Part shown: in pieces, positions 27,514 to 63,472 of the stretch
Layout of the letters: each line of letters begins with the position of its first letter
Numbering within the stretch: the first letter of the stretch is position 1
Source: Candidatus Moraniibacteriota bacterium
GTDB lineage: Bacteria > Patescibacteriota > Minisyncoccia > Moranbacterales > UBA1568
NCBI GenBank assembly: GCA_013334575.1
Contig: JAAXXG010000005.1
Coordinates: 3,080 to 67,079 of the forward strand
Direction: 5' to 3'
DNA: 64,000 nucleotides
Program-made: the position numbers and the translations under genes
Notes under the pieces: model-generated
Databases searched by the model: none
The model's input: the letters and a program-made list of their open reading frames with translations, nothing else
Told to the model about the DNA's origin: nothing

Positions 27514-27526
27514 CATACCGCATAAG

Positions 27527-27550
27527 AAAAACCGGCAATGCCGGTTTTTC
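27527..27550. terminator. bidirectional intrinsic terminator
   Basis: AAAAACCGGCAATGCCGGTTTTT. Confidence 0.7.
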
Positions 27551-27579
27551 TATATCCGAAAGACTGCCTGCAGATACTA

Positions 27580-28599: not shown

Positions 28600-28621
28600 A
28601 CGCCGATGCTTGAGCGTGATA

Positions 28622-29629: not shown

Positions 29630-29796
29630 ATCAATAGGTAATTTTGTTTATCGATACTGTACCACTTTTTTTTCTCTTTTACCAGTTCATGGTTCATTAT
29701 GATCTTTTTACCACTTTATGTAATAAAATATATATTTTGTCAATAATCAACAAATCCACCAGAAACACTTTTCTATAATATGCTTTTCTTTACGAT

Positions 29797-30271: not shown

Positions 30272-30315
30272 ATATATATAATTGACATATATAGTGTTCT
30301 GTGTTTTTATGACTG

Positions 30316-30344
30316 TTGACGGGAGCCTCTTCTCCGGTTAAAAT
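30316..30344 (+). promoter_or_regulatory. sigma70-like promoter (TTGACG-17-TAAAAT) for the tRNA-Ala/tRNA-Arg operon
   Basis: The -10 element ends 9 nt before tRNA-Ala +1. Confidence 0.5.
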
Positions 30345-30353
30345 TGCCTCATT

Positions 30354-30426
30354 GGGCCTGTAGCTTAGTTGGTAGAGCGCCTCCATGGCATGGAGGAGGT
30401 CAGGAGTTCGAGTCTCCTCAGGTCCA
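30354..30426 (+). tRNA. tRNA-Ala (GGC)
   Basis: G3:U70 identity pair, anticodon loop atGGCat, T-loop TTCGAGT. Confidence 0.8.
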
Positions 30427-30477
30427 CACCCATACCGTATTCATGCCATTTTGACGCTCTATACGGCCATCGGTTCC

Positions 30478-30549
30478 GCCTCGATAGCTCAATGGATAGA
30501 GCGAATCCGTCCTAAGGATGAGATCTAGGTTCGATTCCTAGTCGGGGCA
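30478..30549 (+). tRNA. tRNA-Arg (CCT)
   Basis: Acceptor GCCTCGA/TCGGGGC, anticodon loop gtCCTaa, T-loop TTCGATT. Confidence 0.7.
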
Positions 30550-30641
30550 CAAAAAACCTTTCTCAGGCGAATACGACCCATCTTTGACAAAATACCGAGA
30601 TTGCGCGACAATGCTCCGATTAGACACCGAAAGGAAACTCC

Positions 30642-30974
30642 ATGTCGCGAAGAATCCTGCAAATCAACGAGCTCCTTCGGGAGCGGCTCGGCGAAATCAT
30701 CCTTCGGGAGGTCAGTTTCAAGCCGGGAGTACTCGCCACTTTAACGAAGGTCTCCGTCTCACGGGATCTCCGCCATGCATCGGTACATATCAGCCCGTTC
30801 CCGGAGACGGAAAGCGAATACGTGATGCGAACGCTCGAGCACGAACGAAAGCGCATCCAAAAAATCCTGCACGGGGGACTTCATATGAAACCGCTGCCGG
30901 CCATCGCGTTCCTTACGGATACGACGGAGCGGGAAGCCGACATCGTGGAACGGATCCTCCGGGACCTGGACTGA
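30642..30974 (+). CDS. rbfA: ribosome-binding factor A
   Basis: MSRRILQINELLRERLGEIILREV...ATLTKVSVSRDLRHASVHIS. Confidence 0.85.
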   Translation: MSRRILQINELLRERLGEIILREVSFKPGVLATLTKVSVSRDLRHASVHISPFPETESEYVMRTLEHERKRIQKILHGGLHMKPLPAIAFLTDTTEREADIVERILRDLD

Positions 30975-31001
30975 CGTATTTTTCGGAGTTATACACCGGT
31001 T

Positions 31002-31967
31002 ATGCGAGAGTACCTCACGGAATTCCGAAACATCGACTACGTCATCCGGAATGCGGAGAAAATACTCCTCTTCGCTCATACCCGGCCCGATTCCGACACC
31101 GTCGGAGCGAATATCGCCCTTCAGGAACACATAGAGACTCTCGGGAAGCAGGTAGACATCGCCTGTCAGGACGTCTTTCCGGAGTTTGCCAAGGCGCTGT
31201 TTCCCTCCACGAAGTTCATCACGCCGGATCAGCTCGATTTCGGAGAATACGACGCGTTTATCGCGTCGGACAGCGTGAATCGCGGTTTTCATGCCGTCCG
31301 CAACCGGATTTCTGAAGAGAAGGTCGTCATCCTGATCGATCATCACCCCATAGAGGACCCCGAGGGGGACGTCATCATCATCGATACCGGATTCTCGTCC
31401 GCCTGTGAAATCGTCTATCGCTACTTCGAGTTCGCGAATGTGCGCTTATCGCATCGGATGGCAACCGCCCTCCTGCTCGGAATCCTGGGGGATACCGGAA
31501 ATTTACAACACTCCTCGACGACTCCCGCGACCTTTTCCGCCGCGGCAGCACTTATCCGAAGCGGCGCCCAACTTCCGAAGATCACGAATGACGTCTTCTC
31601 GAACAACAAAATCAGCACGCTTAAGCTGTGGGGGAGGGCACTTTCCCGAGCTCGCATCAATCCGCAGAACGGGATGATCTATTCCGCGATCACGGGACGA
31701 GACATCGAGGAACTCGGAAACCCTTCGACCGAGGATCTCTACATCGCTTCCGCGCTTCTCAATAACGTTCCGGATTCACGTTTCTCGCTTCTCTTCTATC
31801 AGATTTCTCCCGATTCGGTCCGCGGCAGCCTCCGTACGGAGCCTCACAAGGGAGTGGATGTCTCCGCTATCGCCCAGTCCCTCGGCGGCGGGGGGCACAA
31901 GTATGCGAGCGGTTTCGAGATTCCCGGCCGGATCGTCGAGACGGAAAATGGCTGGGAGGTGCGGTAA
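31002..31967 (+). CDS. DHH-family phosphoesterase (NrnA-like)
   Basis: HTRPDSDTVGA and DHH motifs, followed by a DHHA1-like C-terminus. Confidence 0.75.
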   Translation: MREYLTEFRNIDYVIRNAEKILLFAHTRPDSDTVGANIALQEHIETLGKQVDIACQDVFPEFAKALFPSTKFITPDQLDFGEYDAFIASDSVNRGFHAVRNRISEEKVVILIDHHPIEDPEGDVIIIDTGFSSACEIVYRYFEFANVRLSHRMATALLLGILGDTGNLQHSSTTPATFSAAAALIRSGAQLPKITNDVFSNNKISTLKLWGRALSRARINPQNGMIYSAITGRDIEELGNPSTEDLYIASALLNNVPDSRFSLLFYQISPDSVRGSLRTEPHKGVDVSAIAQSLGGGGHKYASGFEIPGRIVETENGWEVR

Positions 31968-31987
31968 AACGGAGTTATCAACCACTT

Positions 31988-32593
31988 ATGAACGATGCGG
32001 TTTCCGACATCAAGAAACGTCTCCTGCTCGACCTGAACGGACGCATGTCGGAAGACTGCGTATGTTCGCTACGCCGTACCGCGACGCAGGCCGTGCCCGG
32101 AGCGGGGAATGCCTCAGCGGAGGTCCTATTCATCGGCGAAGCCCCGGGTAAGAACGAGGATCTGCAGGGAGTGCCGTTCGTAGGCGCAGCCGGAAAGTTC
32201 CTCGACGAGATGCTCGACTCGATCGGGATGAGGCGCGACGACATCTATATCACGAACATCGTCAAATATCGGCCGCCGGATAACCGCGATCCGCTTCCGG
32301 AAGAGATCCGGGACTGTTCCGAATGGCTGCACGAGCAGATCGGGATCATCGATCCTCTTCTGATCGTAACGCTCGGACGGCACGCTATGAACCATTTCTT
32401 CCCGGACCTGCGCATATCGGAGTCTCACGGAAAGGCTTTTCGCAGGGAATTCCCGCAAGGAAGGGCTCAAGTCTTTTACGCGCTCTATCATCCGGCGGCT
32501 GCGCTGTACAACGGGGGAATGCGCGAAACGCTCAAGCAGGACTTCCTCCGAATCCCGGCGCTCTTACGTAAACTCCGCCCTGAGCGTGAATAA
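31988..32593 (+). CDS. uracil-DNA glycosylase, family 4
   Basis: GEAPGKNEDLQGVPFVGAAGKFL and HPAA motifs. Confidence 0.8.
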   Translation: MNDAVSDIKKRLLLDLNGRMSEDCVCSLRRTATQAVPGAGNASAEVLFIGEAPGKNEDLQGVPFVGAAGKFLDEMLDSIGMRRDDIYITNIVKYRPPDNRDPLPEEIRDCSEWLHEQIGIIDPLLIVTLGRHAMNHFFPDLRISESHGKAFRREFPQGRAQVFYALYHPAAALYNGGMRETLKQDFLRIPALLRKLRPERE

Positions 32594-32672
32594 ACGGAGG
32601 ACAACCGCCTTCATGCGCGTTTCGTTGACGTTCCGTGACCGTTTCTGGTACCCTGGGTTTGTTTTGAGGTAC

Positions 32673-32743
32673 GGTCCGATGGCCGAGTGGTCAGGCACGG
32701 GTCTGCAAAACCCTTCACGGCGGTTCGATTCCGCCTCGGACCT
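32673..32743 (+). tRNA. tRNA-Cys (GCA)
   Basis: Acceptor GGTCCGA/TCGGACC with U73 discriminator, anticodon loop ctGCAaa. Confidence 0.65.
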
Positions 32744-32775
32744 CAAGCAAATGAATCGGCCCTTTGAGCGGATAT

Positions 32776-32859
32776 GCCGCGGTGGTGGAACTGGTAGACA
32801 CAGGAGACTTAAAATCTCCCGGCCGCAAGGCCATGCGGGTTCGATTCCCGCCTGCGGCA
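32776..32859 (+). tRNA. tRNA-Leu (TAA)
   Basis: Long variable arm, anticodon loop ctTAAaa, acceptor GCCGCGG/CTGCGGC with A73. Confidence 0.8.
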
Positions 32860-39437: not shown

Positions 39438-39509
39438 AGCGGGTAACGGGAGTCGAACCCGTATTTCGTCCTTGGCAAGGACGCGTAATAGCCGCTATAC
39501 GATACCCGC
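39438..39509 (-). tRNA. tRNA-Gly (GCC)
   Basis: Acceptor GCGGGTA/TACCCGC with U73, anticodon loop ttGCCaa, T-loop TTCGACT. Confidence 0.75.
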
Positions 39510-39559
39510 TTACTTCCTGGACATGCTACCGACTTTCCCTCCATCCGGCAAGAGGAGTG

Positions 39560-39632
39560 TGGGACTGGCTGGATTCGAACCAGCGACCAAGCGGTTATGA
39601 GCCGCCTGCTCTAACCGCTGAGCTACAGTCCC
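39560..39632 (-). tRNA. tRNA-Met (CAT), elongator-type (could be tRNA-Ile2/lysidine)
   Basis: GGGACTGTAGCTCAGCGGTTAGAGC..., anticodon loop ctCATaa, and G1:C72 excludes an initiator. Confidence 0.7.
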
Positions 39633-39699
39633 GGCCCCATCGCGGATCGGAAACGGTGGATAAACGGTGATATTCCCGAGTTATCCACAGGATTTCCTG

Positions 39700-39771
39700 T
39701 GCCTGGAGACAGAATCGAACTGTCGACACGAGGATTTTCAGTCCTCTGCTCTACCACTGAGCTACCCAGGC
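39700..39771 (-). tRNA. tRNA-Phe (GAA)
   Basis: GCCTGGGTAGCTCAGTGGTAGAGC..., anticodon loop ctGAAaa. Confidence 0.8.
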
Positions 39772-39861
39772 GACTTTCCCCATTATACACGCTTTCTGTG
39801 CACGCTCAAGGACTCGTCCAGCATTCGCCGGACGCCCCGCGAATGCGGGGCGAACCCCGTG

Positions 39862-39935
39862 TGCACGCTGAGAGATTCGAACTCCCGACCCCCTCGGTGT
39901 AAACGAGGTGCTCTAACCAACTGAGCTAAGCGTGC
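39862..39935 (-). tRNA. tRNA-Val (TAC)
   Basis: GCACGCTTAGCTCAGTTGGTTAGAGC..., anticodon loop ttTACac. Confidence 0.8.
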
Positions 39936-40126
39936 GGCCCATTCAACCGTCAGTATAATCGACCCCGAGAATCATGCAACCCGGACAACGAAAGAGGGTG
40001 GCCTTCCACCCTCGCTGCGTTCGGTTGTTGTCCAGGTGAGCCCGCCTCGCTTCGCTGCGGCCTTCTCGTCCTCCCGCACGTCGAATCGTCGACGTGCTTC
40101 CTGGCCACTCTCACTCCGTTCGATTG

Positions 40127-40210
40127 TGCCCAGGAGAGGACTCGAACCTCCAATCCCTTGCGGGAACTAGCACCTCAAGCTAGCGCGTATACCAATTCCG
40201 CCACCTGGGC
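40127..40210 (-). tRNA. tRNA-Leu (GAG)
   Basis: Long variable arm, anticodon loop ttGAGgt. Confidence 0.75.
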
Positions 40211-53147: not shown

Positions 53148-54578
53148 ATGAACCACCAGGAACTCTGGAAATCCGTCCTCGGGCAGATCGAGCTTTCCAT
53201 TTCGAAGGCTAATTTCGTCACCTGGTTCCAGAACACATCGATCCTCTCTATCGAAGACGGATCCGTCGTTATCAGCGTCCCGAACGGATTCGCCAAGGAA
53301 TGGCTTGAAAATAAATATAATCACACCATCATACAGTCGCTCCGCTCGTTTGAAGGAGACGCGGTACGCTCTATACGCTGCGTCATATCCGGCCCACAGA
53401 CCATAAAGAAATCGATCGACGCCATAACACAGCCCGTACAACAGATCGACATCGCTTCGAAATCCTCCCCGCTTCCACCTCGCATACAACCGTTCAATCC
53501 CACCGCTCCCGTCCCTACACCAAAACTGGCGACGGCGATGTTCCATGAATCGAATCTCAATCCGCGATACACTTTCGACGACTACGTCGTCGCCGAAAAC
53601 AACGAACTCGCCCATGCGGCCTGTGTCGCCGTTTCCAGGAATCTCGGTCAACTTTACAATCCGCTCTTCATCTACGGCGGCGTAGGACTCGGGAAAACCC
53701 ACCTCCTCCAGGCACTCGGAAACGAAGTGAAGCGGCAGCACCCTGAAAAGACGATCAAATACATCACTTCCGAGCGTTTCACGAGCGAACTCGTCGATTC
53801 CATCAAGAACCAGAAGACCGACAAGTTCAAGGAATACTACCAGCAGATGGACCTCCTCATCATCGACGACGTCCAGTTTCTTTCCGGCCGGGAAAAGACT
53901 CAGAACGAATTTTTTCACATCTTCAACGCCCTCTACCAGATCAACAAACAGATCGTGATATCAAGCGATCGCCCCCCGAAATCGATTCCTACCCTCGAAG
54001 ACCGTCTCCGATCCCGATTCGAAGGAGGAATGATCACCGATATTAGCCAGCCGAACGAAGAAACCAGACTCGCTATCCTTAAGAAGAAAGTGATCGAAAA
54101 AGGCGTTTCCATAGACGAGGAATCCCTCAGGTTCATCGCGGAAAACATCACCCAGAACATCCGGGAAATCGAAGGGGCGCTTAATCGCGTCATCGCCTAC
54201 TCGGAATTCTACAAGACACCTCCGTCGATATCACTCGTTGAAAAGGTGCTCTCCCAGCTCATTATTCAGAATAAGAAGACCATTAGCACCGAGGATATCG
54301 TTTCAGCTACCGAGAAGCTCTTTTCGGTCACCAAGGACGATCTCCTGAAAAAAGGACGGAAGAAAGGCATCGCACATGCGAGGCAGGTTGCGATGTACCT
54401 CATGCGAAGCGAACTCAGCATGCCGTTCTCCTCGATTGGCGACTATTTCGGTGGACGAGATCATACGACCGCTCTCCATGCATTCGAAAAGATATCCGCC
54501 GACATCGAAAAGAATCTCCGTCTCAAGGGTGATATTTCGACTCTAAAAAATGAGCTGTACCATCAAAATGGTGGATAA
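53148..54578 (+). CDS. dnaA: chromosomal replication initiator DnaA
   Basis: N-terminus MNHQELWKSVLGQIELSIS..., Walker A GGVGLGKTHLL, and C-terminal DNA-binding domain. Confidence 0.95.
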   Translation: MNHQELWKSVLGQIELSISKANFVTWFQNTSILSIEDGSVVISVPNGFAKEWLENKYNHTIIQSLRSFEGDAVRSIRCVISGPQTIKKSIDAITQPVQQIDIASKSSPLPPRIQPFNPTAPVPTPKLATAMFHESNLNPRYTFDDYVVAENNELAHAACVAVSRNLGQLYNPLFIYGGVGLGKTHLLQALGNEVKRQHPEKTIKYITSERFTSELVDSIKNQKTDKFKEYYQQMDLLIIDDVQFLSGREKTQNEFFHIFNALYQINKQIVISSDRPPKSIPTLEDRLRSRFEGGMITDISQPNEETRLAILKKKVIEKGVSIDEESLRFIAENITQNIREIEGALNRVIAYSEFYKTPPSISLVEKVLSQLIIQNKKTISTEDIVSATEKLFSVTKDDLLKKGRKKGIAHARQVAMYLMRSELSMPFSSIGDYFGGRDHTTALHAFEKISADIEKNLRLKGDISTLKNELYHQNGG

Positions 54579-54843
54579 GTTGTGGATTAACCAGGATTCG
54601 ACCTGGAGAGAGCGTGAATAAATAACCGACTTATCTACACAAATAAAATGGATCCTCTCCATATACACCATTCGGTGTATATCGAAAATAGAAACGTGCT
54701 CACGAACCGTACAGAAAAAACACTTCTACGGAGCCAAAAATCGAAAATCTCCACTTATCCACTCCGCTAATAATCATAATAAAATATATATATATAATAT
54801 ATATAATAATACCTATAACCCGTGGAGGGATCAGTATACGTCT
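54570..54843. promoter_or_regulatory. oriC candidate: DnaA boxes and AT-rich DUE in the dnaA-dnaN intergenic region
   Basis: DnaA-box-like 9-mers GGTGGATAA (54569-77), TGTGGATTA (54581-89), TTATCTACA (54630-38) and TTATCCACT (54755-63). AT-rich run with (TA)n at 54775-54815. Confidence 0.7.
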
Positions 54844-55995
54844 ATGAAAATCATCTGTACTCAAGAAAATCTCTCGAAAGCACTGTCTTACCTTGAACGG
54901 GCTACAGGAAAGCAATCGACTTTGCCTATTCTTTCCAACTTCCTTCTCAGAGTCGATCACGGTCGCCTGAAGCTATCTTCGACGAATCTTGAAATCGGGG
55001 TGACTGCGACGGTAAACGCGAAGATCGAGGGGGTGGGTGAGATCGCGGCGCCGGTGAAGATCATATCCAATTTCGTCGGGAATCTTCCTGGGGATGATGT
55101 CGTATCGATCGATGTGCAAGGGAATTCCGTTTCGGTCGCGTCGGGCGGCTATGATATGCGTGTCCGAGGGCTCGATTCGAAAGATTTCCCTATCATTCCG
55201 GAAAGGAAAGGTGAACATTCCTTTCTGCTGCCCGCTCAGGATCTGAAAACGGCCCTGCAGCGCATTCTCCCGTGTGCCTCATCGAATGAAAGTCGCCTGG
55301 AGTTGACCGGTATCAGTATGCAGTTTCTGAAGGGGGAGGTCCACCTTGCTGCGACGGACAGCTTCAGGCTTGCCGAACAGGTTCTCCGTCTTCCAGATGA
55401 TGTCGGATCGGAGGGGTATGAGGTGTTCCGGGATCAGAATCCGTCTCTTATTCTCCCTCATATCACCATGCAGGAGCTTTCCAGGATCATCTCTCCTGAG
55501 ACTGTTTCCGTGTTCGTGGCATTCGAGGAGAATCAGGTGTTTTTCGATATCGACGGGGTATCGATTGTTTCACGGGTTATTAATGGAAAATATCCCGATT
55601 ATAAGCAGATTCTTCCGAAAGAGTTCTCGTATGTCGCCAGACTTTCCCGGGATGAGTTTCTTCGGGCTGTCAGGATGGCGGGAGTATTTGCGTCTCAGAT
55701 GACCGGAGAGATGATGATCGTGGTCTCTCCGGAGAAGGGTGAAGTGCAGGTTTCCGCCAGGTCGTCCGAGATTGGTGAGAATCGTACGGTTATAAAGGCC
55801 GAGGTGTCCGGAGGGGATCCGGTTCAGATCGTCTTTAATCCCCGTTATGTGATTGATGGCTTGAACGCGGTCTCTTCCGAAGTGGTTGCGTTCCTCCTGA
55901 ATTCCTCGTCGACTCCGGCTGGGTTCAGGTCGGTTGGCTCTGACGGGATTGAAGATCCTTTCTTCCTTTATATCGCGATGCCTATCAGGAAATAG
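54844..55995 (+). CDS. dnaN: DNA polymerase III beta sliding clamp
   Basis: MKIICTQENLSKALSYLERATGK... and three-domain clamp length. Confidence 0.93.
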   Translation: MKIICTQENLSKALSYLERATGKQSTLPILSNFLLRVDHGRLKLSSTNLEIGVTATVNAKIEGVGEIAAPVKIISNFVGNLPGDDVVSIDVQGNSVSVASGGYDMRVRGLDSKDFPIIPERKGEHSFLLPAQDLKTALQRILPCASSNESRLELTGISMQFLKGEVHLAATDSFRLAEQVLRLPDDVGSEGYEVFRDQNPSLILPHITMQELSRIISPETVSVFVAFEENQVFFDIDGVSIVSRVINGKYPDYKQILPKEFSYVARLSRDEFLRAVRMAGVFASQMTGEMMIVVSPEKGEVQVSARSSEIGENRTVIKAEVSGGDPVQIVFNPRYVIDGLNAVSSEVVAFLLNSSSTPAGFRSVGSDGIEDPFFLYIAMPIRK

Positions 55996-56018
55996 GTATC
56001 GATTGAAAGAGGACTCCT

Positions 56019-56324
56019 ATGAAGAGACTTGGGGACATGATGAGCGGTCCGGTGTCCGTTGCGGGCGGTAGGGCGCCTCGGAGAGCTGTTGTCGCGGACG
56101 AAAAGACGGTTTTTTTCCTGGCTGAGCGGGTGATAGGCGGTATGTATGGCGATCGTGGTCGGGAGAATCTGAAGCCGCGGTTTTTTCGTAACGGAAAGTT
56201 GTTTATCGCCTGTTCCGGTCCGTTATGGGCGAATGAGTTGTGGATCGGACGGGAGGCGTTTCGGGAACGTATAAACCGCGAGCTGGGAAGCGACGGAGTA
56301 AGGGGGGTCGGCGTATCCGACTAA
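56019..56324 (+). CDS. DUF721 (DciA-like) protein
   Basis: VFFLAERVIGGMYGD...GKLFIACSGPLWANELWIGREAFRERINRELG matches the DUF721 pattern. Conserved position downstream of dnaN. Confidence 0.6.
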   Translation: MKRLGDMMSGPVSVAGGRAPRRAVVADEKTVFFLAERVIGGMYGDRGRENLKPRFFRNGKLFIACSGPLWANELWIGREAFRERINRELGSDGVRGVGVSD

Positions 56325-56387: not shown

Positions 56388-58952
56388 TCACCAGCTTACC
56401 GAGACGCTTGACTCACGTCCGTCCTCATTCCCGTTATCATCCTTCACGATCGCTTCTATGTGGATCGTAGAATGATTCTTCCCATCCGGGACCTGATAGG
56501 TCGTCTCCAGCGAATCATTGCTTGTCGAGGCGATCTCGTTCCCGTCGGCAAGGATCCGGAGTGAACTGATGCCGTACGGTGCCTCCGTCTTTGCCTTAAC
56601 GGTAAACGATTGTCCTGCGGAATCCGGAGTGGAAAGGCTTACTTTCGCCTTATAGTCGGAGAAATCACTCTCCTTACACTCGTCTTCCGGCGCTCCTCCG
56701 GTAACTCCACCCTTCACTTTGTTCTTCTTGTACCATTCCTTGACACCGTCTTCCCATCGTTTGAACTGAGGATCGTTTTCCGGATGCTCAGGCTTCGTTC
56801 CAAGCGGGTCGTTTCGGTCGATGTAGTAGAGGATAGTGTGCGTGTTGACGAAATCCTTCTTGTCAGCCTTGCTGTCGGGGCAGTACTTGTTCGCAAGACA
56901 GTATTTGTCCTTTCCGGGAATCTTACAGACCTTCACGTTCTCTTCCTGATCAAGTTTTCCGTCAAGAAGGGGCTTCTTCATCCATTCCGCATCCTTGTTT
57001 TCCTCGAAATAGGAATCCTTGGAATATTCGGGAAACTTTTCTATTGCCTGATTCTTGAGCGCGAAATCGATGAATTTCCGGAAGATCGGCGCCGCGACAT
57101 TGACACCGTCCGCGCCGGTTCTCATGGGAGAATTGTCGTTGTTTCCGGCCCAGACGCCGACGGCTATCTGCGGAGTGAATCCGACCGTCCAGCCGTCACG
57201 GAACTCGTTCGTCGTCCCGGTCTTCGCCGCGACGGGTCTATCGTCGAACCGGAGGGGACTGTTTGTCCCGAAAACCGGAGCCCGATAGTCGTTCGTGGAC
57301 ATGACATGGTCGAGCATGGCGACGTATTTCTCGTCGACAACCCGTTCTCCCGTGGTATCCTGATACTGTTCCAGGACGTTTCCTTTCGTATCTTCGATCC
57401 GGAGAATCGCCGTCTTATCGCGTCGTACGCCGCCTTGGGCAAGCGTCGAGTAGGCGTTCACGTGGTCAAGTAGGGTAATTTCTCCGCCTCCGAGGACAAG
57501 GGAGAGTCCGTATCGGTCCGGATCGTTGAGACTGGTGATCCCGAGGCTCTTCGCGAACGCGACCGCATCCTTCGCGCCGACAAGATACAGGGTCTTAACC
57601 GCTGGTATGTTGAGGGACTGGGCGAGCGTTTCCTTCATGGGGAGCGGTCCTCGGAATTTTCCGTCGTAGTTTTGCGGGGTATAGTCCTTCCCGTCATCGG
57701 TCGAAAAGTTCGTCTCGGTGTCGTAGAGGATCGTTTCGGGGCTGTAGCCCTTGGTGAAGGCGTCGAGATAGACGTACGGTTTGAAGGACGATCCCGGCTG
57801 ACGTTCCCTGATCGCCACGTTTACTTGGCCGTCAATCGACTTATCGAAATAGTCGCGCGAGCCGACCATGGTAAGAATCTGCCCCGTCTTCGGGTCCATG
57901 GCGACGAGCGCCGCGTTCTCGGCGTTCCAGCGCTTCTCGTTATCGAGTGCCTGGTCGCGTACGAGTCGTTCGGCTTCCTGTTGTTTGTCCCAGTCGAGCG
58001 TGGTATAGACCTTGAGACCCATGGATTCCACTCCTTCGCCGTATTTCTGCGAGAGATAGTCCTTTACGTACATCACGAAGTGCGGTGCCGCGATGATATC
58101 CTTCTGTGTCTGTATCCGGTCGAGAGTCTTTTCCGCGACGGCCGAGTCGGCCTCTTCCTGGGAGATATAGCCGAGCTTCGCCATTTGCTGGAGCACCCTG
58201 TCCTTCCGGGCAATCAGTTGTTCGGTATGCGATCCATACGGCGAATAATAAGTCGGCGCGTTCGGGAGCGACGCGAGTACGGCCGCTTCGTCGAGCGAGA
58301 GATCCTTGGCGGACTTTCCGAAGAATGTCTGCGCCGCAGCCTCGATGCCGTAGGCGTTCGATCCGTACGGGATCTCGTTGAGGTACATCGCGAGGATCTC
58401 GTCCTTGTCGAATTTCTGCTCGATCTCGATCGAGAGGATGACCTCCTTCACTTTTCGGATGACCGTCTTTTCGTTCGAGAGAAGGGAATTCTTCACGAAC
58501 TGCTGCGTGATGGTCGATCCGCCTTGTGCCGCGCCACCTTTCACGACATCCTTGAAGACGGCCCGGAGGATAGAGGAGAGCTTGATGCCGTGGTGCGAGT
58601 AGAAATCCTGGTCCTCGAGGACGATTGTCGCGATCTGGACGCTTTTCGGGATATCGGCAAACGCGACGATAGTCCTTTTTTCCTCGCCGTGAACGTCATA
58701 GAGCAGGTGTTCGCCGGATCGGTCGTAAATCTTCGTGGATTCCGGTATGACGCGAGAGTTGACCTTCCCGGGGCTCGGCAAATCCTTCGCGACCCATGCG
58801 AAGAGCGCGATCGCGATGATGAACACCGTTCCGGCGCCCCAAAGGGCTATACGCCCGAGGATTTTCGGCCATTCGCGCCTGTCAGCTTCGGACAATCTGC
58901 GCCACCTGCCGTCCGATGGCCGGAATCGGTCAAAAAGTCTTTTCATAAGCAA
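56388..58952 (-). CDS. class A penicillin-binding protein (PBP1A-type transglycosylase/transpeptidase) with C-terminal extension
   Basis: N-terminal TM, GT51 motifs (EDQDFYSHHG, GGSTITQQ), and TP motifs (SSFKP, SLN, KTGT). Confidence 0.9.
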   Translation of the reverse strand: MLMKRLFDRFRPSDGRWRRLSEADRREWPKILGRIALWGAGTVFIIAIALFAWVAKDLPSPGKVNSRVIPESTKIYDRSGEHLLYDVHGEEKRTIVAFADIPKSVQIATIVLEDQDFYSHHGIKLSSILRAVFKDVVKGGAAQGGSTITQQFVKNSLLSNEKTVIRKVKEVILSIEIEQKFDKDEILAMYLNEIPYGSNAYGIEAAAQTFFGKSAKDLSLDEAAVLASLPNAPTYYSPYGSHTEQLIARKDRVLQQMAKLGYISQEEADSAVAEKTLDRIQTQKDIIAAPHFVMYVKDYLSQKYGEGVESMGLKVYTTLDWDKQQEAERLVRDQALDNEKRWNAENAALVAMDPKTGQILTMVGSRDYFDKSIDGQVNVAIRERQPGSSFKPYVYLDAFTKGYSPETILYDTETNFSTDDGKDYTPQNYDGKFRGPLPMKETLAQSLNIPAVKTLYLVGAKDAVAFAKSLGITSLNDPDRYGLSLVLGGGEITLLDHVNAYSTLAQGGVRRDKTAILRIEDTKGNVLEQYQDTTGERVVDEKYVAMLDHVMSTNDYRAPVFGTNSPLRFDDRPVAAKTGTTNEFRDGWTVGFTPQIAVGVWAGNNDNSPMRTGADGVNVAAPIFRKFIDFALKNQAIEKFPEYSKDSYFEENKDAEWMKKPLLDGKLDQEENVKVCKIPGKDKYCLANKYCPDSKADKKDFVNTHTILYYIDRNDPLGTKPEHPENDPQFKRWEDGVKEWYKKNKVKGGVTGGAPEDECKESDFSDYKAKVSLSTPDSAGQSFTVKAKTEAPYGISSLRILADGNEIASTSNDSLETTYQVPDGKNHSTIHIEAIVKDDNGNEDGRESSVSVSW

Positions 58953-59007: not shown

Positions 59008-59952
59008 TCAAATACCTGTCGAAGCCTTTCTTCCAAGGGATTTCAGTGTCCGACGTATGAATTCCTCGTAATCCATATCTTCTGATGGGAATCCTATCTG
59101 ATCGTTCAACTCGAAGACGAACGGTGTTTTTCCGCCCGCAACTCCGAAATCTATCGAATAGAGAGGGAGGTCGAACTCAGTATCTATACTTTCCTGTATT
59201 TCTGAAACCCGATCAAGAATGAAGGCCGGGATTTCTTTTAGCGGGACTTCCCGAATCGATCCTCCCTGGGCGACATTCGCAAGAAAGGAGCCTTCTTTCG
59301 GGGTCCGAACATGACAAAGGACGATTTGTCCCTCAACGATGATAATCCTAAGGTCATGTCGGCCATCGATGACACCAGGAATCCCTTTGGAGGTGTCGAC
59401 GAATTCCTGTAAGGAATACTCTTTTTCCGGTTCGAGTGTCGAAAGGGCTATTTCCGAAGCCGGTCCGATGAGGATCCCGTTTCCCTGCATGCCTTTCGAG
59501 GGTTTCAGGACAACGATATCCCCAGCATCGAATTCGTCGAGTGCGGATCGAAGCTCCTCTTTGCTCCGGATAGTGATGTTTTTCGGCATGAAATCGGAAA
59601 GATGTCCGTACATGGCGTTTTTGTCGTTGCAAAGACGCTTGAAAACGATGCTATTCAAGGTTTTTTTACCGATTTTCTCGGGAGGGAAGGAAAGTCCGCC
59701 GCTTCGGTCGAATATTGCATCGGCGTCAATCGACCCATAATCCAAGAAGGTGCCGGAGTCATACCGATACGCGTTCCTGAATGTCAGCGGGGATTCGTAA
59801 TTTTCCTTTCCGCTCGCAACGAACATATCGAAACCGAGTTCCGTTCCGAGTTCGAAAAGGCGATGATAAACCATCTTCTTTTTCCCGAACGTCGCGAACG
59901 GATCTCCGCCTATCGTCCGCCGGTGAAAATACATCACTATCTTTTTTCGCAT
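59008..59952 (-). CDS. ATP-grasp domain protein
   Basis: Central VVLKPSKGMQGNGI...EGQIVLCHVR...NVAQGG...FELNDQIGF is ATP-grasp architecture. Confidence 0.6.
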   Translation of the reverse strand: MRKKIVMYFHRRTIGGDPFATFGKKKMVYHRLFELGTELGFDMFVASGKENYESPLTFRNAYRYDSGTFLDYGSIDADAIFDRSGGLSFPPEKIGKKTLNSIVFKRLCNDKNAMYGHLSDFMPKNITIRSKEELRSALDEFDAGDIVVLKPSKGMQGNGILIGPASEIALSTLEPEKEYSLQEFVDTSKGIPGVIDGRHDLRIIIVEGQIVLCHVRTPKEGSFLANVAQGGSIREVPLKEIPAFILDRVSEIQESIDTEFDLPLYSIDFGVAGGKTPFVFELNDQIGFPSEDMDYEEFIRRTLKSLGRKASTGI

Positions 59953-60848
59953 GAAACAAGGTATTTTGCGAGCTCTGAAATTTCGGGGGACACTGTCTCG
60001 TCGGTGGTGAAAGCGGGGCAGCTGTTAACTTCGAATATGAATGGTCCGCGTTCCGGATGATCCACTATATCGACTCCGGCAATCTCGATATCCGTAATTT
60101 CCGCGCCGAGGACGGCGGCCATCCTCACCTCCTCCCGGACCTTGGACGGGTCGATGAATTCCTCATCCGCTCCAAGGTGGACGTTGTTCCGGAATTCCTC
60201 TTTCCCGGAACGGGTTTTCTTTTCCGCTACGGAAACATGATTTCCCATGACGAGAAGGCGATATTCGAATGTATTCGGTATGAATTCCTGCAGGAAAATC
60301 TCCCTTCCACCGTTGTTTTCAAGCCGGTCGCATATGATTTTTGAGAGTTCTTCCCCTGTTTTCGCTAGAAATACACCGGATCCCTGCGAGGAATTCGTCT
60401 CTTTCACGACGATTGGAAAGCCGAGGAACGCGATGGCGTTTTCCCTTTGCTGTCCGGAATATCCCGCCGAATGATATGTTTTCGGAACGGGTGCTCCGCT
60501 CAGGGCGAGATTGAAGATCTGGATGATTTTCGCCATATCCGAAGCGTCCTTGGTCCGATTATGGAATCCGTCCAGGAATCTGACCCCTTTCCGTTCCGAG
60601 AGGCGACAGAGCATGTGCGCCAACCCTCTGTACTTCCCGACTTTTCTCGGGTATATAGTCGTCCATTCGTCGACGGGCTTTTCTTCAACTCGTATCTCGA
60701 CACTCCCTTTTTCTATGAAGACCTCGAGATCCTCGAAACTGGAGACGGAATAAGGGGTGCCGTCTTCGGAGAGCTTTTCACCGAGTGCGTCGAGAAATCC
60801 TGTCATTTTCGGTCCCGTCTCTCTTTTGCTTTTCAATATGAGCAACAT
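59937..60848 (-). CDS. RimK-like ATP-grasp ligase
   Basis: FPIVVKETNSSQGSGVFLA...LLVMGNHVSVAEKKTRSGKEEFRNNVHLGA...AGVDIVDHPERGPFIFEVNS. Confidence 0.7.
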   Translation of the reverse strand: MLLILKSKRETGPKMTGFLDALGEKLSEDGTPYSVSSFEDLEVFIEKGSVEIRVEEKPVDEWTTIYPRKVGKYRGLAHMLCRLSERKGVRFLDGFHNRTKDASDMAKIIQIFNLALSGAPVPKTYHSAGYSGQQRENAIAFLGFPIVVKETNSSQGSGVFLAKTGEELSKIICDRLENNGGREIFLQEFIPNTFEYRLLVMGNHVSVAEKKTRSGKEEFRNNVHLGADEEFIDPSKVREEVRMAAVLGAEITDIEIAGVDIVDHPERGPFIFEVNSCPAFTTDETVSPEISELAKYLVSCEKR

Positions 60849-60861
60849 AGGTTCTTGATCG

Positions 60862-62256
60862 TTATTTACTGACGTCGACGAGAAATTTTCTGAGGCTTTT
60901 CCGTCCGATGATGACGGGGTATTCCAACCCGGTCCGATCTATCGCGGAAACCTTCGCTGGAATGATCACCTGGTCGATCGAGAGGTCGATCCGGAACATG
61001 GGCCGATAACTTGTGCCGTGTGACGATTTGATTTGGGCCGTATCGGCAAGGTCGGGTATTCCGGAAAAAAGGACCTCGCGTTCCCGTTTTGAGAGGTCAT
61101 TGAGGACGTCGCGGTCTCCCATGCGATTCTCAAACAGCGCTATGGCATCCCTAAAGCCGAGCTTGCGGGCGAGTTCCGTGTCTACGGAAGTCGAGTCGGC
61201 TCCCGTGTCTATCTTGGCCTCGACCGTGATTTCCTTTCCGTCCTTTCCGAAGAGGCGAACCTTTTCTACGGACCCGATGACACGCTTTCCGGAGAGTTCC
61301 TCGATTTCCTCCTCGATCTCTCCGCCGAAGAGGTTCTTCCCGAGGAGGATGCCTCGCTCGGTCGTCTTCACCTTGAGGCCTTTCACACGATCCAGCCGAC
61401 CTTTGAGTCCCGTGAGGTTGGCGATCTGTATGGAGAGGCCCGGACGGGCGTTAAGTTCGAGAAGGACCGGTCCGCGGTCCCGGTCGATAGCGATGTCCGC
61501 GCCGAGGAAACCGAGTCCGGAAACGGACTGCGATTCCACCGCGATGCGGAGGATCTCGTTCCAGTAGGGGATGCGGATACCGGAGAGGGCGAGCCGTGTC
61601 CCGGGGACATAGTCGATGAGATGCGATTTCCCGACGACGGCCGAGGTCGTCGTTCCGGTCGCGAGGTCGATCCCGGTCCCGATGGCACCCTGCTGAAGGT
61701 TGGCTTTTCCGTCGGATTCTCGCGTCGGGAGGCGGAGCATAGCCATGACGGGGACGCGGTTGAAGACGATGACGCGGATGTCGGGGATGCCCTTGTACGC
61801 GTACGGCTTGAAGAGCTTAAGCAGCTTCAGTCTCTCCTCGAAGAAAGCGATATCAGGAGTATTCGTCAGTGAGAACGATCCGTCGAGGATGTTTCGGATA
61901 TGCGTACGGAGGTCTTCGACGGTCACCACGGCGCCGCTCGCCTTCACCCAGGCGTCGTTCCGGCCGCGTTTCCGACCGTAGACGATGAGGATTCCTTCTC
62001 CGCCGAATCCGCGGTTCGGTTTGAGCGCGAAGCTTCCCGGAAGCGACGACCAGTCGAAGTCTTCGAGTTCGGCATGGGTGCGGATACGGGCGATAAGACC
62101 CGGGACCGGAAGCCCGTTCTTCCGGAGAAGCCGCTTCGCGCGCAGCTTATTGTCCGCGAACTCGCGTCCGCTCCGCTTGTTAAGCGGGCGGATGTAGTCG
62201 AGGTTTCGGGCGTTCATCCCGAGCAGTTCCCGGCTGTTTCGAAGGAGTTCGAACAT
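60862..62256 (-). CDS. alpha-L-glutamate-ligase-related ATP-grasp (RLAN + ATP-grasp) fused to C-terminal retropepsin-like (DUF785/Zn_protease) aspartic peptidase domain
   Basis: N-terminus MFELLRNSRELLGMNARNLDYIRPLN. C-terminal domain has the DTGAD catalytic motif (ITVEAKIDTGADSTSV). Confidence 0.65.
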   Translation of the reverse strand: MFELLRNSRELLGMNARNLDYIRPLNKRSGREFADNKLRAKRLLRKNGLPVPGLIARIRTHAELEDFDWSSLPGSFALKPNRGFGGEGILIVYGRKRGRNDAWVKASGAVVTVEDLRTHIRNILDGSFSLTNTPDIAFFEERLKLLKLFKPYAYKGIPDIRVIVFNRVPVMAMLRLPTRESDGKANLQQGAIGTGIDLATGTTTSAVVGKSHLIDYVPGTRLALSGIRIPYWNEILRIAVESQSVSGLGFLGADIAIDRDRGPVLLELNARPGLSIQIANLTGLKGRLDRVKGLKVKTTERGILLGKNLFGGEIEEEIEELSGKRVIGSVEKVRLFGKDGKEITVEAKIDTGADSTSVDTELARKLGFRDAIALFENRMGDRDVLNDLSKREREVLFSGIPDLADTAQIKSSHGTSYRPMFRIDLSIDQVIIPAKVSAIDRTGLEYPVIIGRKSLRKFLVDVSK

Positions 62257-62263
62257 AGGTCTG

Positions 62264-62920
62264 TCACTTCTGCCGGAGGACGGTCAGGAATCGGAAGTAC
62301 TCCGTGAGCCGGAGGCCGGTCCATTTTCCGAGGACGACGTTGAGCGGGATGGTGAGGAGGACTGTCCAGGGATGCGCGAGGATGAATCGGACGAACGCCG
62401 GCCAGGAGATAAGCGCGTAGCCGACGAGGGAGATGGCAAGCGTCTCCGCGGCGAGGATGACCGCGGCGCGGGTGCCCTTTTCGAGCTGGACGGCGACGAA
62501 CTTCTCCGTGATGGTGATCATGATGAGGAGCGGGAAGATCGAGACCGACGCGAGTCCGGTGCGGTGTGTCGCCCCGCCAAGGACCAGGATGCCGAGCATC
62601 GAGAAGGAGATTACCGAGAGGGTGATGGCTACGCGGGGGAGATACAGGAGCCGGAACCGCCGGAGGACGTACCGGGTTACCATACCGATCAGGATGACGC
62701 TTCCGAAGATGGCGATGCCGTATTTAAGCCCGTTCGGGTCGAACGCGAGCAGGGCGAACGTGACGATGGACGGCGCATAGATGCCGAACGCTTTGATACC
62801 GACGACCTGTCGGAAGAACGAGGCGAGTGTCGCGACGACGGGGAGCAGGAGAAGAAGTGCCATCGTCTGAGCGGGTACGTTCTGACCGACGATGAATTCG
62901 GTGATCGGGCTGTAGTCCAT
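62264..62920 (-). CDS. multi-pass (7TM-type) membrane protein associated with ATP-grasp/retropepsin systems
   Basis: 218 aa with ~6-7 hydrophobic helices. Directly upstream of and co-oriented with the ATP-grasp trio. Confidence 0.5.
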   Translation of the reverse strand: MDYSPITEFIVGQNVPAQTMALLLLLPVVATLASFFRQVVGIKAFGIYAPSIVTFALLAFDPNGLKYGIAIFGSVILIGMVTRYVLRRFRLLYLPRVAITLSVISFSMLGILVLGGATHRTGLASVSIFPLLIMITITEKFVAVQLEKGTRAAVILAAETLAISLVGYALISWPAFVRFILAHPWTVLLTIPLNVVLGKWTGLRLTEYFRFLTVLRQK

Positions 62921-62986: not shown

Positions 62987-63472
62987 TCATCGACAGAGTC
63001 GCGATTTCCGCGAGAATGCGTGACAGAGTCCGATGGCGAGCGCGTCGGCGGTGTCGTCCGGCTTCGGTATCGCCGGAAGCCGTAGGACGTTCTTCGTCAT
63101 GAACTGCATCTGCCGTTTCTCGGCGGAGCCGTATCCGGTGAGTGCCTGCTTGACCTGATTAGGGGTATAACCGGATATGATAACACCGAAACGATTCAAT
63201 GTCAAGAGTATGACGCCTCTTGCCTGGGCGACCGCGATAGCCGTTTTGGCGTTGTTCGAAAAGAAAAGTTCTTCGACAGCGGCCTCTTCCGGTTGGTGGA
63301 CCGTGAGAATCTTCTCGAGGTCGTCTGCCAGGGTACGGAGTCGGGTCGCGGGATCGAGATCCTTGTCGGTCGAGATATGGCCGTAGGCGACCGCGGAGAC
63401 GTTACCGGAGCGTTCCTCGAGAACGCCCCAGCCGATGGTGGCCGTGCCGGGATCGATACCGATGATGCGCAT
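62987..63472 (-). CDS. ruvC: Holliday junction resolvase RuvC
   Basis: MRIIGIDPGTATIGWGVLE...ADALAIGLCH. Confidence 0.9.
   Translation of the reverse strand: MRIIGIDPGTATIGWGVLEERSGNVSAVAYGHISTDKDLDPATRLRTLADDLEKILTVHQPEEAAVEELFFSNNAKTAIAVAQARGVILLTLNRFGVIISGYTPNQVKQALTGYGSAEKRQMQFMTKNVLRLPAIPKPDDTADALAIGLCHAFSRKSRLCR

What the first reader, a model, noticed from the sequence alone, without database searches (positions are those of the whole stretch)
59008..62920. Tandem ATP-grasp trio with an ATP-grasp–retropepsin fusion and a 7TM partner: predicted peptide ligation/processing system next to PBP1A
Four co-oriented, tightly packed minus-strand genes: (a) a 7TM-type membrane protein (62264-62920); (b) a TIGR02291-like ATP-grasp, with the MNARNLDYIRPLN RLAN-type N-terminus, fused to a C-terminal retropepsin-like domain carrying DTGAD (60862-62256); (c) a RimK-like ATP-grasp (59937-60848); (d) a third ATP-grasp (59008-59952). 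Comparative genomics, mainly the Iyer/Aravind amidoligase analyses, predicts that such ATP-grasp + DUF785 + 7TM assemblies build or ligate a peptide that the aspartic peptidase then processes, with the membrane protein as sensor or acceptor. None has been characterised biochemically. Three paralogous ligases in a row, one fused to the peptidase, adjacent to a class A PBP, suggests a cell-surface peptide tag or cross-link.
Basis: partly seen in the sequence, partly recalled or inferred. Interest (0 to 1): 0.7.

Follow-up and report, generated by a model that had tools for sequence, protein, structure and literature searches.

The report
Compact Rlo-like peptide ligase–protease module
A Candidatus Moranbacteria genome carries a stripped-down, fused version of the recently described Pseudomonas "Rlo" envelope-stress system: a 7-helix membrane protein and a glutamate-ligase-like enzyme welded to a retroviral-type protease, followed by two extra amino-acid ligases that are swapped between relatives; its product is still unknown.

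Summary
They are a stand-alone 7TM_transglut protein, a TIGR02291/ATPgrasp_ST ligase fused to a DUF785 retropepsin-like domain with an invariant DTGA, a RimK-like ligase and a GshB-like ligase.

- There is no RLAN domain.
- The three ligases belong to different ATP-grasp subfamilies. They are not recent paralogues.
- "None characterised" is outdated: P. aeruginosa RloABC (2025) and RimB/RimK/RimBK (2025) are the direct relatives.

Across 80 Patescibacteria loci, the 7TM gene and the fusion gene form an invariant pair, more conserved than DnaA, DnaN, RuvC or PBP1A. The genes downstream of the pair form a hypervariable cassette: RimK-, GshB- and cyanophycin-synthetase-like ligases, MATCAP/QEGLA peptidase, YdjC, glycosyltransferases. 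PBP1A adjacency holds within Moranbacteria but not in more distant lineages.

Best reading: a membrane-docked writer/eraser for short acidic (poly-α-glutamate-like) peptides, probably envelope-directed, with accessory ligases varying the product between strains. Substrate and product are unknown, and no acidic-tailed ORF lies in the window.

Verdict: a new architectural variant of a known kind, of moderate interest.

The parts
62264..62920 (-). Stand-alone 7TM membrane protein (the RloB-type 7TM module without the inactive transglutaminase domain). Predicted topology is N-terminus outside, C-terminus inside.
   Evidence: PF14402 E 1e-25. It matches only positions 312-507 of the 508 in NF052267 RloB. 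Seven hydrophobic segments, with basic loops at aa 83-96 and 139-151 and a basic C-terminal tail. All 120 listed homologues are 211-229 aa, mostly 217-219, and carry PF14402 only.
60862..62256 (-). Fusion protein of 464 aa: an RloC-type ATP-grasp ligase plus a retropepsin-like aspartic peptidase. It has no signal peptide or TM segment, so it is cytoplasmic.
   Evidence: The maximum Kyte-Doolittle 19-residue window is 1.21.
61381..62208 (-). ATP-grasp ligase domain (aa 17-292) of the TIGR02291 / ATPgrasp_ST type.
   Evidence: PF14397 scores 227.9 bits. TIGR02291 scores 289.8 bits, below its cutoff of 314.2. K79, D254, E267 and N269 are invariant. Foldseek matches ArgX, LysX and RimK at E 7e-7 to 1e-5.
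61288..61332 (-). Acidic linker LFGGEIEEEIEELSG between the ligase and peptidase domains.
   Evidence: Translation. It is invariant or nearly so in 30 homologues. It is acidic in most distant fusions but not all. pLDDT is below 50.
60868..61284 (-). Retropepsin-like (DUF785 / RloA / RimB type) peptidase domain, aa 325-463. The catalytic DTGA is at 61198-61209.
   Evidence: PF05618 scores 34 bits, above its cutoff of 27. RloA3 model E 6.9e-9. A profile of alignment A1 hits PDB 9g58 (RloA) at 1.6e-5. Foldseek gives probability 1.00 to 2pma (DUF785), 9g58 and HIV-1 protease 4njs. pLDDT is 80-93. D350, G352, A353, R418 and R441 are invariant and K348 nearly so.
59937..60848 (-). Accessory RimK-family ATP-grasp ligase. 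It is not an S6-glutamate ligase orthologue.
   Evidence: PF08443 E 2.6e-23. TIGR00768 scores 100 bits (cutoff 143.4). PRK10446 scores 58 bits (cutoff 331). Best PDB sequence hits are Pseudomonas RimK 7qys and 7qyr at about 6e-15. The D...FEVN motif is intact.
59008..59952 (-). Accessory ATP-grasp ligase distantly related to glutathione synthetase. Its start overlaps the upstream ligase gene by 16 nt.
   Evidence: PF02955 E 1.5e-11 and PF08443 E 6.4e-10. The GshB equivalog scores 46 bits (cutoff 272). PDB 1gsa E 1.7e-6. The D...FELN motif is intact. Clear orthologues sit next to the RimK-like gene, in the same order, in 8 loci; in a ninth, L059, one extra ORF lies between them.
56388..58952 (-). 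Class A PBP (PBP1A) immediately downstream. It is probably co-transcribed. This is context, not a demonstrated component.
   Evidence: PF00912 plus PF00905. The gap is 55 nt with no terminator-like site. A PBP1A gene lies downstream of the fusion gene in 63 loci, on the same strand in 60 of them, but not in the distant loci L074-L080.

Best explanation
This is a compact Patescibacteria version of the Rlo/Rim family of peptide writer-eraser systems.

Proposed mechanism:
1. The fusion protein docks on the conserved cytoplasmic loops of the 7TM protein. This is inferred.
2. Its TIGR02291-type ATP-grasp domain uses ATP to build short acidic, most likely alpha-linked oligo/poly-glutamate chains. 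These could be free peptides or a tail on an unidentified acceptor. This is inferred from homology to RimK; RloC itself has not been assayed.
3. The C-terminal retropepsin-like domain has an intact DTGA and keeps the basic residues that bind poly-Glu in RloA. It must pair with a second copy to form an active site, so the fusion protein is at least a dimer. It cuts the chains, limiting their length or releasing them, and may stimulate ligase turnover as RimB does for RimK. This is inferred.
4. The two downstream, translationally coupled ligases (one RimK-like, one GshB-like) add or prime with other residues. Relatives carry different ligases, peptidases and sugar enzymes in this position, so the final product probably differs between strains.
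5. The 7TM protein either passes or anchors the product at the membrane, or gates the enzyme.

The Rlo phenotypes in Pseudomonas and the gene company here (PBP1A; glycosyltransferases and YdjC in relatives) point to the cell envelope as the destination.

Shown: the domain identities, intact catalytic motifs, the invariant pairing of the two core genes and the variability of the cassette. Not shown: the chemistry, the acceptor and the destination.
For: Domain identities:
- 7TM protein: PF14402 E 1e-25. Fusion protein: PF14397 E 1.8e-67, TIGR02291 E 2.2e-86, PF05618 E 3.3e-8, and the RloA1-3 models.
- Structure: Foldseek puts the N-terminal domain with ArgX/LysX/RimK. It puts the C-terminal domain with DUF785 2pma, RloA 9g58 and HIV-1 protease.
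- The profile alignment to RloA 9g58 lines up AK-x-DTGA and two arginines, R418 and R441. By spacing (D+66, D+89) these correspond to RloA R114 and R137, whose mutation abolishes poly-Glu cleavage and complementation.

Link between the 7TM protein and the ligase:
- The two genes are adjacent in 78 of 80 loci, including 51-53%-identical Paceibacteria-like loci with different flanking genes.
- A natural 7TM-ligase fusion exists: P0251, with the RloB 7TM module plus TIGR02291 at 367.7 bits.
- In P. aeruginosa, deletion of rloB or rloC suppresses the lethality of the triple rloA deletion (PMC12239564).

Link between ligase and protease:
- More than 120 protein clusters at 65-89% identity carry this same fusion.
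- The reverse-order RimBK hybrid is proteolytically active. RimB raises RimK ATPase activity fourfold, and poly-alpha-Glu was detected only when RimB was present (PMC11957791).

Selection:
- The fusion (median 68.8% identity) and the 7TM protein (65.7%) are more conserved than DnaA, RuvC, PBP1A and DnaN in the same loci.

The cassette belongs to the module:
- RimK-like ligases and DUF3541 follow the pair in a different genomic location.
- MATCAP/QEGLA, YdjC or a second ATP-grasp occur fused to the ligase-retropepsin protein in relatives.
Against: - No enzyme of the TIGR02291/RloC type has a demonstrated product, so glutamate specificity is an extrapolation. TIGR02291 scores below its curated cutoff here (289.8 against 314.2).
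- The protease domain is cytoplasmic here but periplasmic in Rlo, so the compartment logic of Rlo cannot simply be transferred.
- The periplasmic inactive-transglutaminase domain of RloB is absent.
- No acceptor with an acidic tail is encoded in the window.
- The models are only moderately confident. The fusion has mean pLDDT 65.8 with a weak ligase part. The 7TM model has pLDDT 65.3 and no structural neighbour.
- Two loci (L031, L036) lack any accessory gene, so the extra ligases are not needed by the core pair.
- Conserved gene order within one lineage is weak evidence for a functional tie to PBP1A.
Confidence: 0.5

Rival explanations
1. Amino-acid decoration of a cell-wall glycopolymer or peptidoglycan precursor. 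The ATP-grasp enzymes would amidate sugar-acid or stem-peptide carboxylates, acting as cross-bridge or side-chain ligases. PBP1A would then incorporate the product, and the retropepsin domain would trim it.
For: - The cluster lies immediately upstream of PBP1A, with no terminator-like site, and a PBP1A gene lies downstream in 63 Moranbacteria loci.
- Cassettes in relatives hold GT4, GT2, YdjC and Mur-ligase-like genes.
- Pfam names PF14397 "sugar-transfer associated".
- Rlo mutants in Pseudomonas show altered beta-lactam sensitivity and cell shape.
- From my own knowledge, not tested here: ATP-grasp ligases such as Enterococcus Asl(fm) add D-Asp to peptidoglycan precursors, and Campylobacter Cj1438 amidates glucuronate.
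Against: - PBP1A adjacency is lost in the distant loci that keep the pair and its ligase cassette.
- No homology to known cross-bridge ligases was detected. Ddl-type scores are below cutoff.
- The peptidase domain keeps the RloA-type residues that bind poly-Glu.
- Sugar enzymes are present in only a minority of cassettes, and in none here.
Confidence: 0.2
2. Cytoplasmic protein tail tagging of the RimK/RimB type. The ligases would add Glu or other residues to the C-terminus of a cytoplasmic protein such as ribosomal protein S6. The fused protease would remove them, and the 7TM protein would act as a sensor that tunes the cycle.
For: - The protease domain is cytoplasmic, as RimB is.
- One accessory ligase is RimK-family, and its best solved relatives are Pseudomonas RimK.
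- MATCAP/QEGLA carboxypeptidase fusions in relatives recall the tubulin tyrosination and glutamylation cycles.
- RimBK hybrids exist and are active.
Against: - The core ligase is RloC-type, not RimK-type (TIGR00768 scores 40.9 bits against a cutoff of 143.4).
- The RimK-like gene is an optional cassette member and scores far below the S6-ligase equivalog (58 against 331).
- The obligatory membrane partner is unexplained by a ribosome-directed role.
- No acidic-tailed protein is encoded nearby. S6 lies outside the window and was not examined.
Confidence: 0.15
3. Glutamate/polyglutamate osmotic buffer. The 7TM protein would sense membrane state. It would switch the fused enzyme between polymerising free glutamate, which lowers the osmolyte count, and cleaving it back.
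For: - Rlo mutants die under hypo-osmotic stress, and the authors themselves raise glutamate-polyglutamate homeostasis as a possibility.
- Ligase and protease are in the same compartment and the same polypeptide here.
- The pair is exceptionally conserved in organisms with reduced genomes.
Against: This is entirely inferential. It does not explain the strain-variable accessory ligases and sugar enzymes. An endopeptidase needing at least 6-8 Glu would not regenerate monomers on its own.
Confidence: 0.08

Closest known systems
RloABC operon of Pseudomonas aeruginosa (Lormand et al. 2025, mBio; PMC12239564)
   Same: The same three protein families are present. These are an RloC-type ATP-grasp (TIGR02291/PF14397), the RloB-type 7TM module (PF14402) and an RloA-type retropepsin-like peptidase (PF05618). 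The DTGA motif and the Lys/Arg residues equivalent to those that bind poly-Glu are kept. The genes are clustered in one orientation.
   Different: - The peptidase is fused to the C-terminus of the ligase. It has no signal peptide, so it is cytoplasmic rather than periplasmic.
- The membrane protein lacks the periplasmic inactive-transglutaminase domain (218 aa against about 508).
- One to several extra ligases or other enzymes follow in a variable cassette.
- The host is a CPR bacterium, whereas RloB was reported as 96% proteobacterial.
RimB/RimK and the RimBK hybrid (Little et al. 2025, JBC; PMC11957791)
   Same: A retropepsin-like poly-Glu endopeptidase is physically coupled to an ATP-grasp glutamate ligase in the cytoplasm. 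RimBK shows that such fusions are active.
   Different: - Domain order is reversed: RimB is N-terminal in RimBK, whereas here the ligase comes first.
- The ligase belongs to a different subfamily (RimK against TIGR02291).
- Rim systems have no 7TM partner.
- RimBK occurs mainly in Flavobacteriales and Rhodobacterales.
- This looks like an independent fusion event.
QEGLA (TIGR02421, MATCAP-like) peptidase
   Same: Relatives of the fusion protein carry a MATCAP/QEGLA metallopeptidase. It is either fused to the ligase-retropepsin protein (about 800 aa) or encoded as a cassette gene.
   Different: No MATCAP/QEGLA gene is present in this window. Its function is also unknown.
Cyanophycin synthetase CphA
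   Same: This is also ATP-grasp-driven, non-ribosomal poly-amino-acid synthesis. In sister loci the cassette holds CphA G-domain-like and M-domain-like genes.
   Different: The window's ligases match CphA only weakly (about 18-36 bits). There is no N domain, and no evidence for an Asp-Arg polymer.

Membership tests
Rlo system (RloA/RloB/RloC) | RloC-type cytoplasmic ATP-grasp (TIGR02291 / PF14397) | tested here: met
   PF14397 scores 227.9 bits against a cutoff of 31.4. TIGR02291 gives E 2.2e-86 but its 289.8 bits are below the equivalog cutoff of 314.2. This is membership at family level, not at equivalog level.
Rlo system (RloA/RloB/RloC) | RloB: 7TM module fused to a periplasmic inactive transglutaminase domain | tested here: not met
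   The 7TM module is present (PF14402, 91.1 bits). However, the protein is 218 aa and matches only positions 312-507 of the 508 in NF052267, at 71.8 bits against a cutoff of 900. All 120 close homologues are equally short.
Rlo system (RloA/RloB/RloC) | RloA: secreted retropepsin-like peptidase with an N-terminal signal peptide | tested here: not met
   The fold and motif are present. However, the domain is the C-terminal part of a 464-aa protein with no hydrophobic N-terminus or TM segment.
Rlo system (RloA/RloB/RloC) | Cleavage of runs of at least 8 glutamates; loss of rloB or rloC suppresses the protease-null phenotype | not testable with these tools
   This needs biochemistry and genetics. 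Only the conservation of the residues corresponding to RloA K46, D48, R114 and R137 could be checked.
Retropepsin-like peptidases (DUF785 / PF05618) | Asp-Thr/Ser-Gly-Ala catalytic motif | tested here: met
   DTGA is at aa 350-353. D350, G352 and A353 are invariant in 30 homologues.
Retropepsin-like peptidases (DUF785 / PF05618) | Retropepsin fold | tested here: met
   The domain has pLDDT 80-93. Foldseek gives probability 1.00 to 2pma, 9g58 and 4njs. PF05618 scores 34 bits against a cutoff of 27.
Retropepsin-like peptidases (DUF785 / PF05618) | Homodimer forming one active site | not tested
   Only single-chain prediction was available.
RimBK hybrid | RimB domain N-terminal to a RimK-type ligase | tested here: not met
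   The order here is ligase then peptidase. The ligase scores 40.9 bits on TIGR00768 (cutoff 143.4) and 15.5 bits on PRK10446 (cutoff 331). RimBK is described.
RLAN domain (PF14401) | Match to PF14401 at the N-terminus | tested here: not met
   Scanning aa 1-143 at E<=10 gave no match. The region is covered by PF14397 positions 2-119.
RimK, S6-glutamate ligase (for 59937-60848) | Equivalog-level match to PRK10446 / TIGR00768 | tested here: not met
   PRK10446 scores 58.1 bits (cutoff 331). TIGR00768 scores 100 bits (cutoff 143.4). The domain-level model PF08443 is met at 83 bits.
D-Ala-D-Ala ligase (for either accessory ligase) | Match to the Ddl models above cutoff | tested here: not met
   PF07478 scores 22.8 bits (cutoff 24) for 59937-60848. 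There is no match for 59008-59952.
Glutathione synthetase GshB (for 59008-59952) | Equivalog-level match and the GSH-S N-terminal domain | tested here: not met
   PRK05246 scores 46.1 bits (cutoff 272). Only the ATP-grasp part (PF02955, 44.4 bits) matches, and no N-terminal domain was hit.

The most novel reading that the evidence does not exclude
The invariant pair (7TM protein plus ligase-protease fusion) together with its hypervariable ligase, peptidase and sugar-enzyme cassette is a modular, non-ribosomal assembly line. It would put strain-specific short anionic peptides or glycopeptides on the envelope of CPR bacteria. That would be a functional stand-in for teichoic-acid-type polymers, and a diversifying surface trait relevant to attachment to hosts and to phage. 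If so, the unknown Rlo product in Pseudomonas would be the simplest member of a much wider class.
Probability: 0.2. Interest if true: 0.75.

Novelty: new variant of a known kind. Interest (0 to 1): 0.55.

Why it matters
The Rlo system affects survival under hypo-osmotic stress, beta-lactam sensitivity, biofilm formation and cell shape in P. aeruginosa. Its chemistry and substrate are unknown.

The Patescibacteria version reduces it to two proteins: a bare 7TM module and one polypeptide carrying both ligase and protease. It keeps them under stronger constraint than DnaA or PBP1A in genomes that have shed most non-essential functions.

- That makes it a minimal and probably easier system for reconstituting the reaction.
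- It argues that the 7TM-ligase-protease triad, not the transglutaminase-like domain or protease secretion, is the functional core.
- Opposite-order fusions in RimBK and here independently support a physical ligase-protease complex.
- The variable cassette suggests the product can be chemically diversified.

Tried and rejected
1. RLAN N-terminal domain. No PF14401 hit appears even at E<=10, so this was rejected.
2. Housekeeping Ddl, RimK or GshB. All equivalog scores are far below cutoff, so this was rejected.
3. A small Glu/Asp-tailed precursor gene. Intergenic gaps in the cluster are at most 66 nt. No ORF of 30 aa or more in the whole window has at least 4 acidic residues among its last 6, or an acidic run of at least 7 in 8. 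None of the cluster proteins ends in acidic residues.
4. Self-cleavage at the invariant EIEEEIEE linker, by analogy with retroviral polyproteins. This is judged unlikely. The linker has at most 3 contiguous Glu, whereas RimB needs at least 6 and RloA at least 8, and interruptions abolish cleavage. The linker is also not acidic in several distant fusions. It remains a cheap experiment.
5. Fold of the 7TM protein. The model has pLDDT 65.3 and the best Foldseek PDB hit has E 1.2, so this gave no information.
6. Anti-phage defence. There are no PADLOC hits.
7. Iyer/Aravind 2009 (PMC3268129). The paper is not held in the library, so statements about it rest on my memory and on its citation in PMC12239564.
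8. Taxonomic names for distant fusions through cluster look-up were mostly absent.
9. A literature search for Moranbacteria plus ATP-grasp found nothing.

Full report
**Observation.**
- 62264-62920, 218 aa
- 60862-62256, 464 aa
- 59937-60848, 303 aa
- 59008-59952, 314 aa

They are packed with gaps of 7 and 13 nt and a 16-nt overlap. RuvC lies 66 nt upstream and a class A PBP 55 nt downstream. No intergenic terminator-like site lies on that strand. The source is a Candidatus Moranbacteria (Patescibacteria/CPR) genome: the fusion protein is 100% identical to a deposited Moranbacteria MAG protein. The cluster lies close to dnaA-dnaN.

**Domain identities.**
- The membrane protein matches PF14402 (7TM_transglut, E 1e-25). 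It aligns only to the last 200 or so positions of the NCBIfam RloB model. It has seven hydrophobic segments, and the distribution of basic residues predicts N-out/C-in. It is therefore the bare 7TM module, without the inactive transglutaminase domain.
- The 464-aa protein combines an ATPgrasp_ST/TIGR02291 ligase (E 1.8e-67 and 2.2e-86) with a C-terminal PF05618 domain (E 3.3e-8). That domain also hits the RloA1-3 models.
- An AlphaFold model has mean pLDDT 65.8, but 80-93 over the C-terminal domain. Foldseek matches its N-terminal part to ArgX, LysX and RimK. It matches its C-terminal part to DUF785 2pma, RloA 9g58 and HIV-1 protease.
- A profile of 30 homologues finds the RloA crystal-structure sequences directly.
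- DTGA (aa 350-353) is invariant. So are two arginines that, by spacing, correspond to the RloA residues needed for poly-Glu cleavage.
- The other two ligases are a RimK-family member and a distant GshB-like member. Both fall far below every equivalog cutoff.
- All three ligases keep the Lys and the D...xExN metal-binding motif.
- They share only 23-28% identity over short stretches. They represent three subfamilies, not a tandem duplication.
- No RLAN domain is detectable.

**Comparative genomics.** Eighty related loci were fetched from species-representative genomes.
- The 7TM gene immediately precedes the fusion gene in 78 of them. The other two are truncated at the contig end.
- Within Moranbacteria the order is RuvC, 7TM, fusion, variable cassette, PBP1A, DciA, dnaN, dnaA.
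- In 51-53%-identical Paceibacteria-like loci the pair instead sits between sufB and an ORF whose N-terminal motif reads as RNase HI (my reading; not profile-tested). It is again followed by 0-4 RimK-like, DUF3541 or unknown genes.
- The cassette between the fusion gene and PBP1A has 42 different compositions in 61 loci.
- Cassette genes include GshB-like, RimK-like and cyanophycin-synthetase G-domain-like ligases. They also include a CphA M-domain/Mur-ligase-like protein, a MATCAP/QEGLA peptidase, YdjC, GT4 and GT2.
- Two loci have no cassette at all.
- The window's RimK-like/GshB-like pair recurs, adjacent and in the same order, in 8 loci. In a ninth, L059, one extra ORF separates the two genes.
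- Among 1.8 billion representative proteins, relatives of the fusion protein show several further architectures. These are ligase-retropepsin-MATCAP (about 800 aa, many clusters), ligase-retropepsin-YdjC, ligase-retropepsin-second ATP-grasp, and 7TM-ligase.
- These fusions tie the cassette enzyme types and the 7TM module to the core ligase.
- Across 25 loci, the fusion protein (median 68.8% identity) and the 7TM protein (65.7%) are more conserved than DnaA (64.5%), RuvC (62.8%), PBP1A (62.6%) and DnaN (49.9%). The accessory ligases are at 29-47%.

**What is known.** NCBIfam's names led to Lormand et al. 2025.
- P. aeruginosa rloABC encodes a secreted retropepsin-like peptidase (RloA), an inactive-transglutaminase/7TM protein (RloB) and a TIGR02291-type ATP-grasp (RloC).
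- RloA cuts runs of at least 8 Glu.
- A triple protease mutant dies in salt-free medium and shows beta-lactam, biofilm and cell-shape defects.
- Deletion of rloB or rloC suppresses these defects. The substrate is unknown.

Little et al. 2025 add three points.
- RimB is a poly-Glu endopeptidase that needs at least 6 Glu.
- RimB raises RimK ATPase activity fourfold, and poly-alpha-Glu was detected only when RimB was present.
- A natural RimB-RimK hybrid, with the protease first, is active.

**Interpretation.** The window holds a new architectural variant of this family. The RloC-type ligase and an RloA/RimB-type protease are fused in the order opposite to RimBK. The fusion protein has no signal peptide. 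It is paired with a transglutaminase-less RloB module and followed by a replaceable accessory cassette.

- I take the most likely mechanism to be membrane-docked synthesis and trimming of short acidic peptides, probably directed at the envelope.
- The accessory ligases would diversify the product.
- The chemistry is extrapolated from RimK, RimB and RloA and is not demonstrated.
- PBP1A adjacency fits the cell-wall phenotypes of Rlo mutants. However, it is not maintained outside Moranbacteria, so it is suggestive only.
- Rival explanations are cell-wall or glycopolymer amidation, S6-type cytoplasmic tagging, and a glutamate/polyglutamate osmotic buffer. They are listed with tests.

**Negative results.**
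- The window encodes no acidic-tailed substrate ORF.
- The acidic linker EIEEEIEE is unlikely to be a self-cleavage site by the rules established for RimB and RloA.
- The 7TM model is uninformative.
- There is no defence-system match.
- No literature on this module in CPR bacteria was found.

**Verdict.** This is a new variant of a known kind. Interest is moderate (0.55): it offers a minimal, highly conserved form of a system whose biochemistry is an open question.

Noticed in passing
L002:9406-10404 (family present in 24 loci); L046:3886-5154 (3 loci); L016:11220-12431: Sister Moranbacteria loci carry stand-alone genes resembling single domains of cyanophycin synthetase. One resembles the ATP-grasp G domain (TIGR02068 E 1.9e-59, positions 210-473). 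The other resembles the Mur-ligase-like M domain (E 6e-52, positions 481-860). In two loci the two are side by side. This could be a split CphA-like poly-amino-acid synthetase without an N domain.
   Followed up: partly
P0132, P0136 and many other proteins of about 800 aa; L007:11520-12872: A MATCAP/QEGLA (TIGR02421) metallopeptidase is fused to the ligase-retropepsin protein or encoded next to it. In some of these triple fusions (e.g. P0132) the D[TS]GA motif and the PF05618 match are missing, so the retropepsin domain may be degenerate there.
   Followed up: partly
L024:3176-4990; L080:3174-4151: DUF3541 (PF12060) occurs fused to a RimK-like ligase, or as a separate gene right after the core pair. 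It is an uncharacterised domain that appears functionally tied to these ligases.
   Followed up: no
window 53148-56324: This region looks like the replication origin. It holds dnaA (53148-54578), dnaN (54844-55995) and a small DciA-family gene (56019-56324; PF05258 E 1.8e-6). Cumulative GC skew reaches its minimum at about 54.5 kb.
   Followed up: partly
window 56388-58952: PBP1A has a C-terminal extension of about 220 aa beyond the transpeptidase domain (Pfam match ends at aa 628 of 854). No family match was found for it.
   Followed up: no
L007, L045 and many loci titled 'uncultured Bdellovibrionales': Records titled Candidatus Fimivivens, Candidatus Bathyarchaeia archaeon, Micavibrio or Bdellovibrionales carry the Moranbacteria-type RuvC-7TM-fusion-PBP1A gene order at 60-78% identity. 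Their taxonomic labels look wrong, through mis-binning or mis-assignment.
   Followed up: no
window 39438-40210 and 27440-32859: There are two groups of tRNA genes: five on the minus strand at 39.4-40.2 kb, and five on the plus strand between 27.4 and 32.9 kb.
   Followed up: no
window 63177-63205 (-): A near-consensus sigma-70-like promoter match (TTGACA, 17 nt spacer, TATCAT, with an extended TG) lies inside the ruvC coding region, upstream of the 7TM gene. It is a consensus match only. The number of such sites in the region equals the shuffled expectation.
   Followed up: no
L078:11144-12151; L074:6613-8430: Proteins with no family match, sharing an N-terminal '...YPERPSYSA...' motif, follow the ligase cassette in distant loci. 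They could be further components or acceptors.
   Followed up: no
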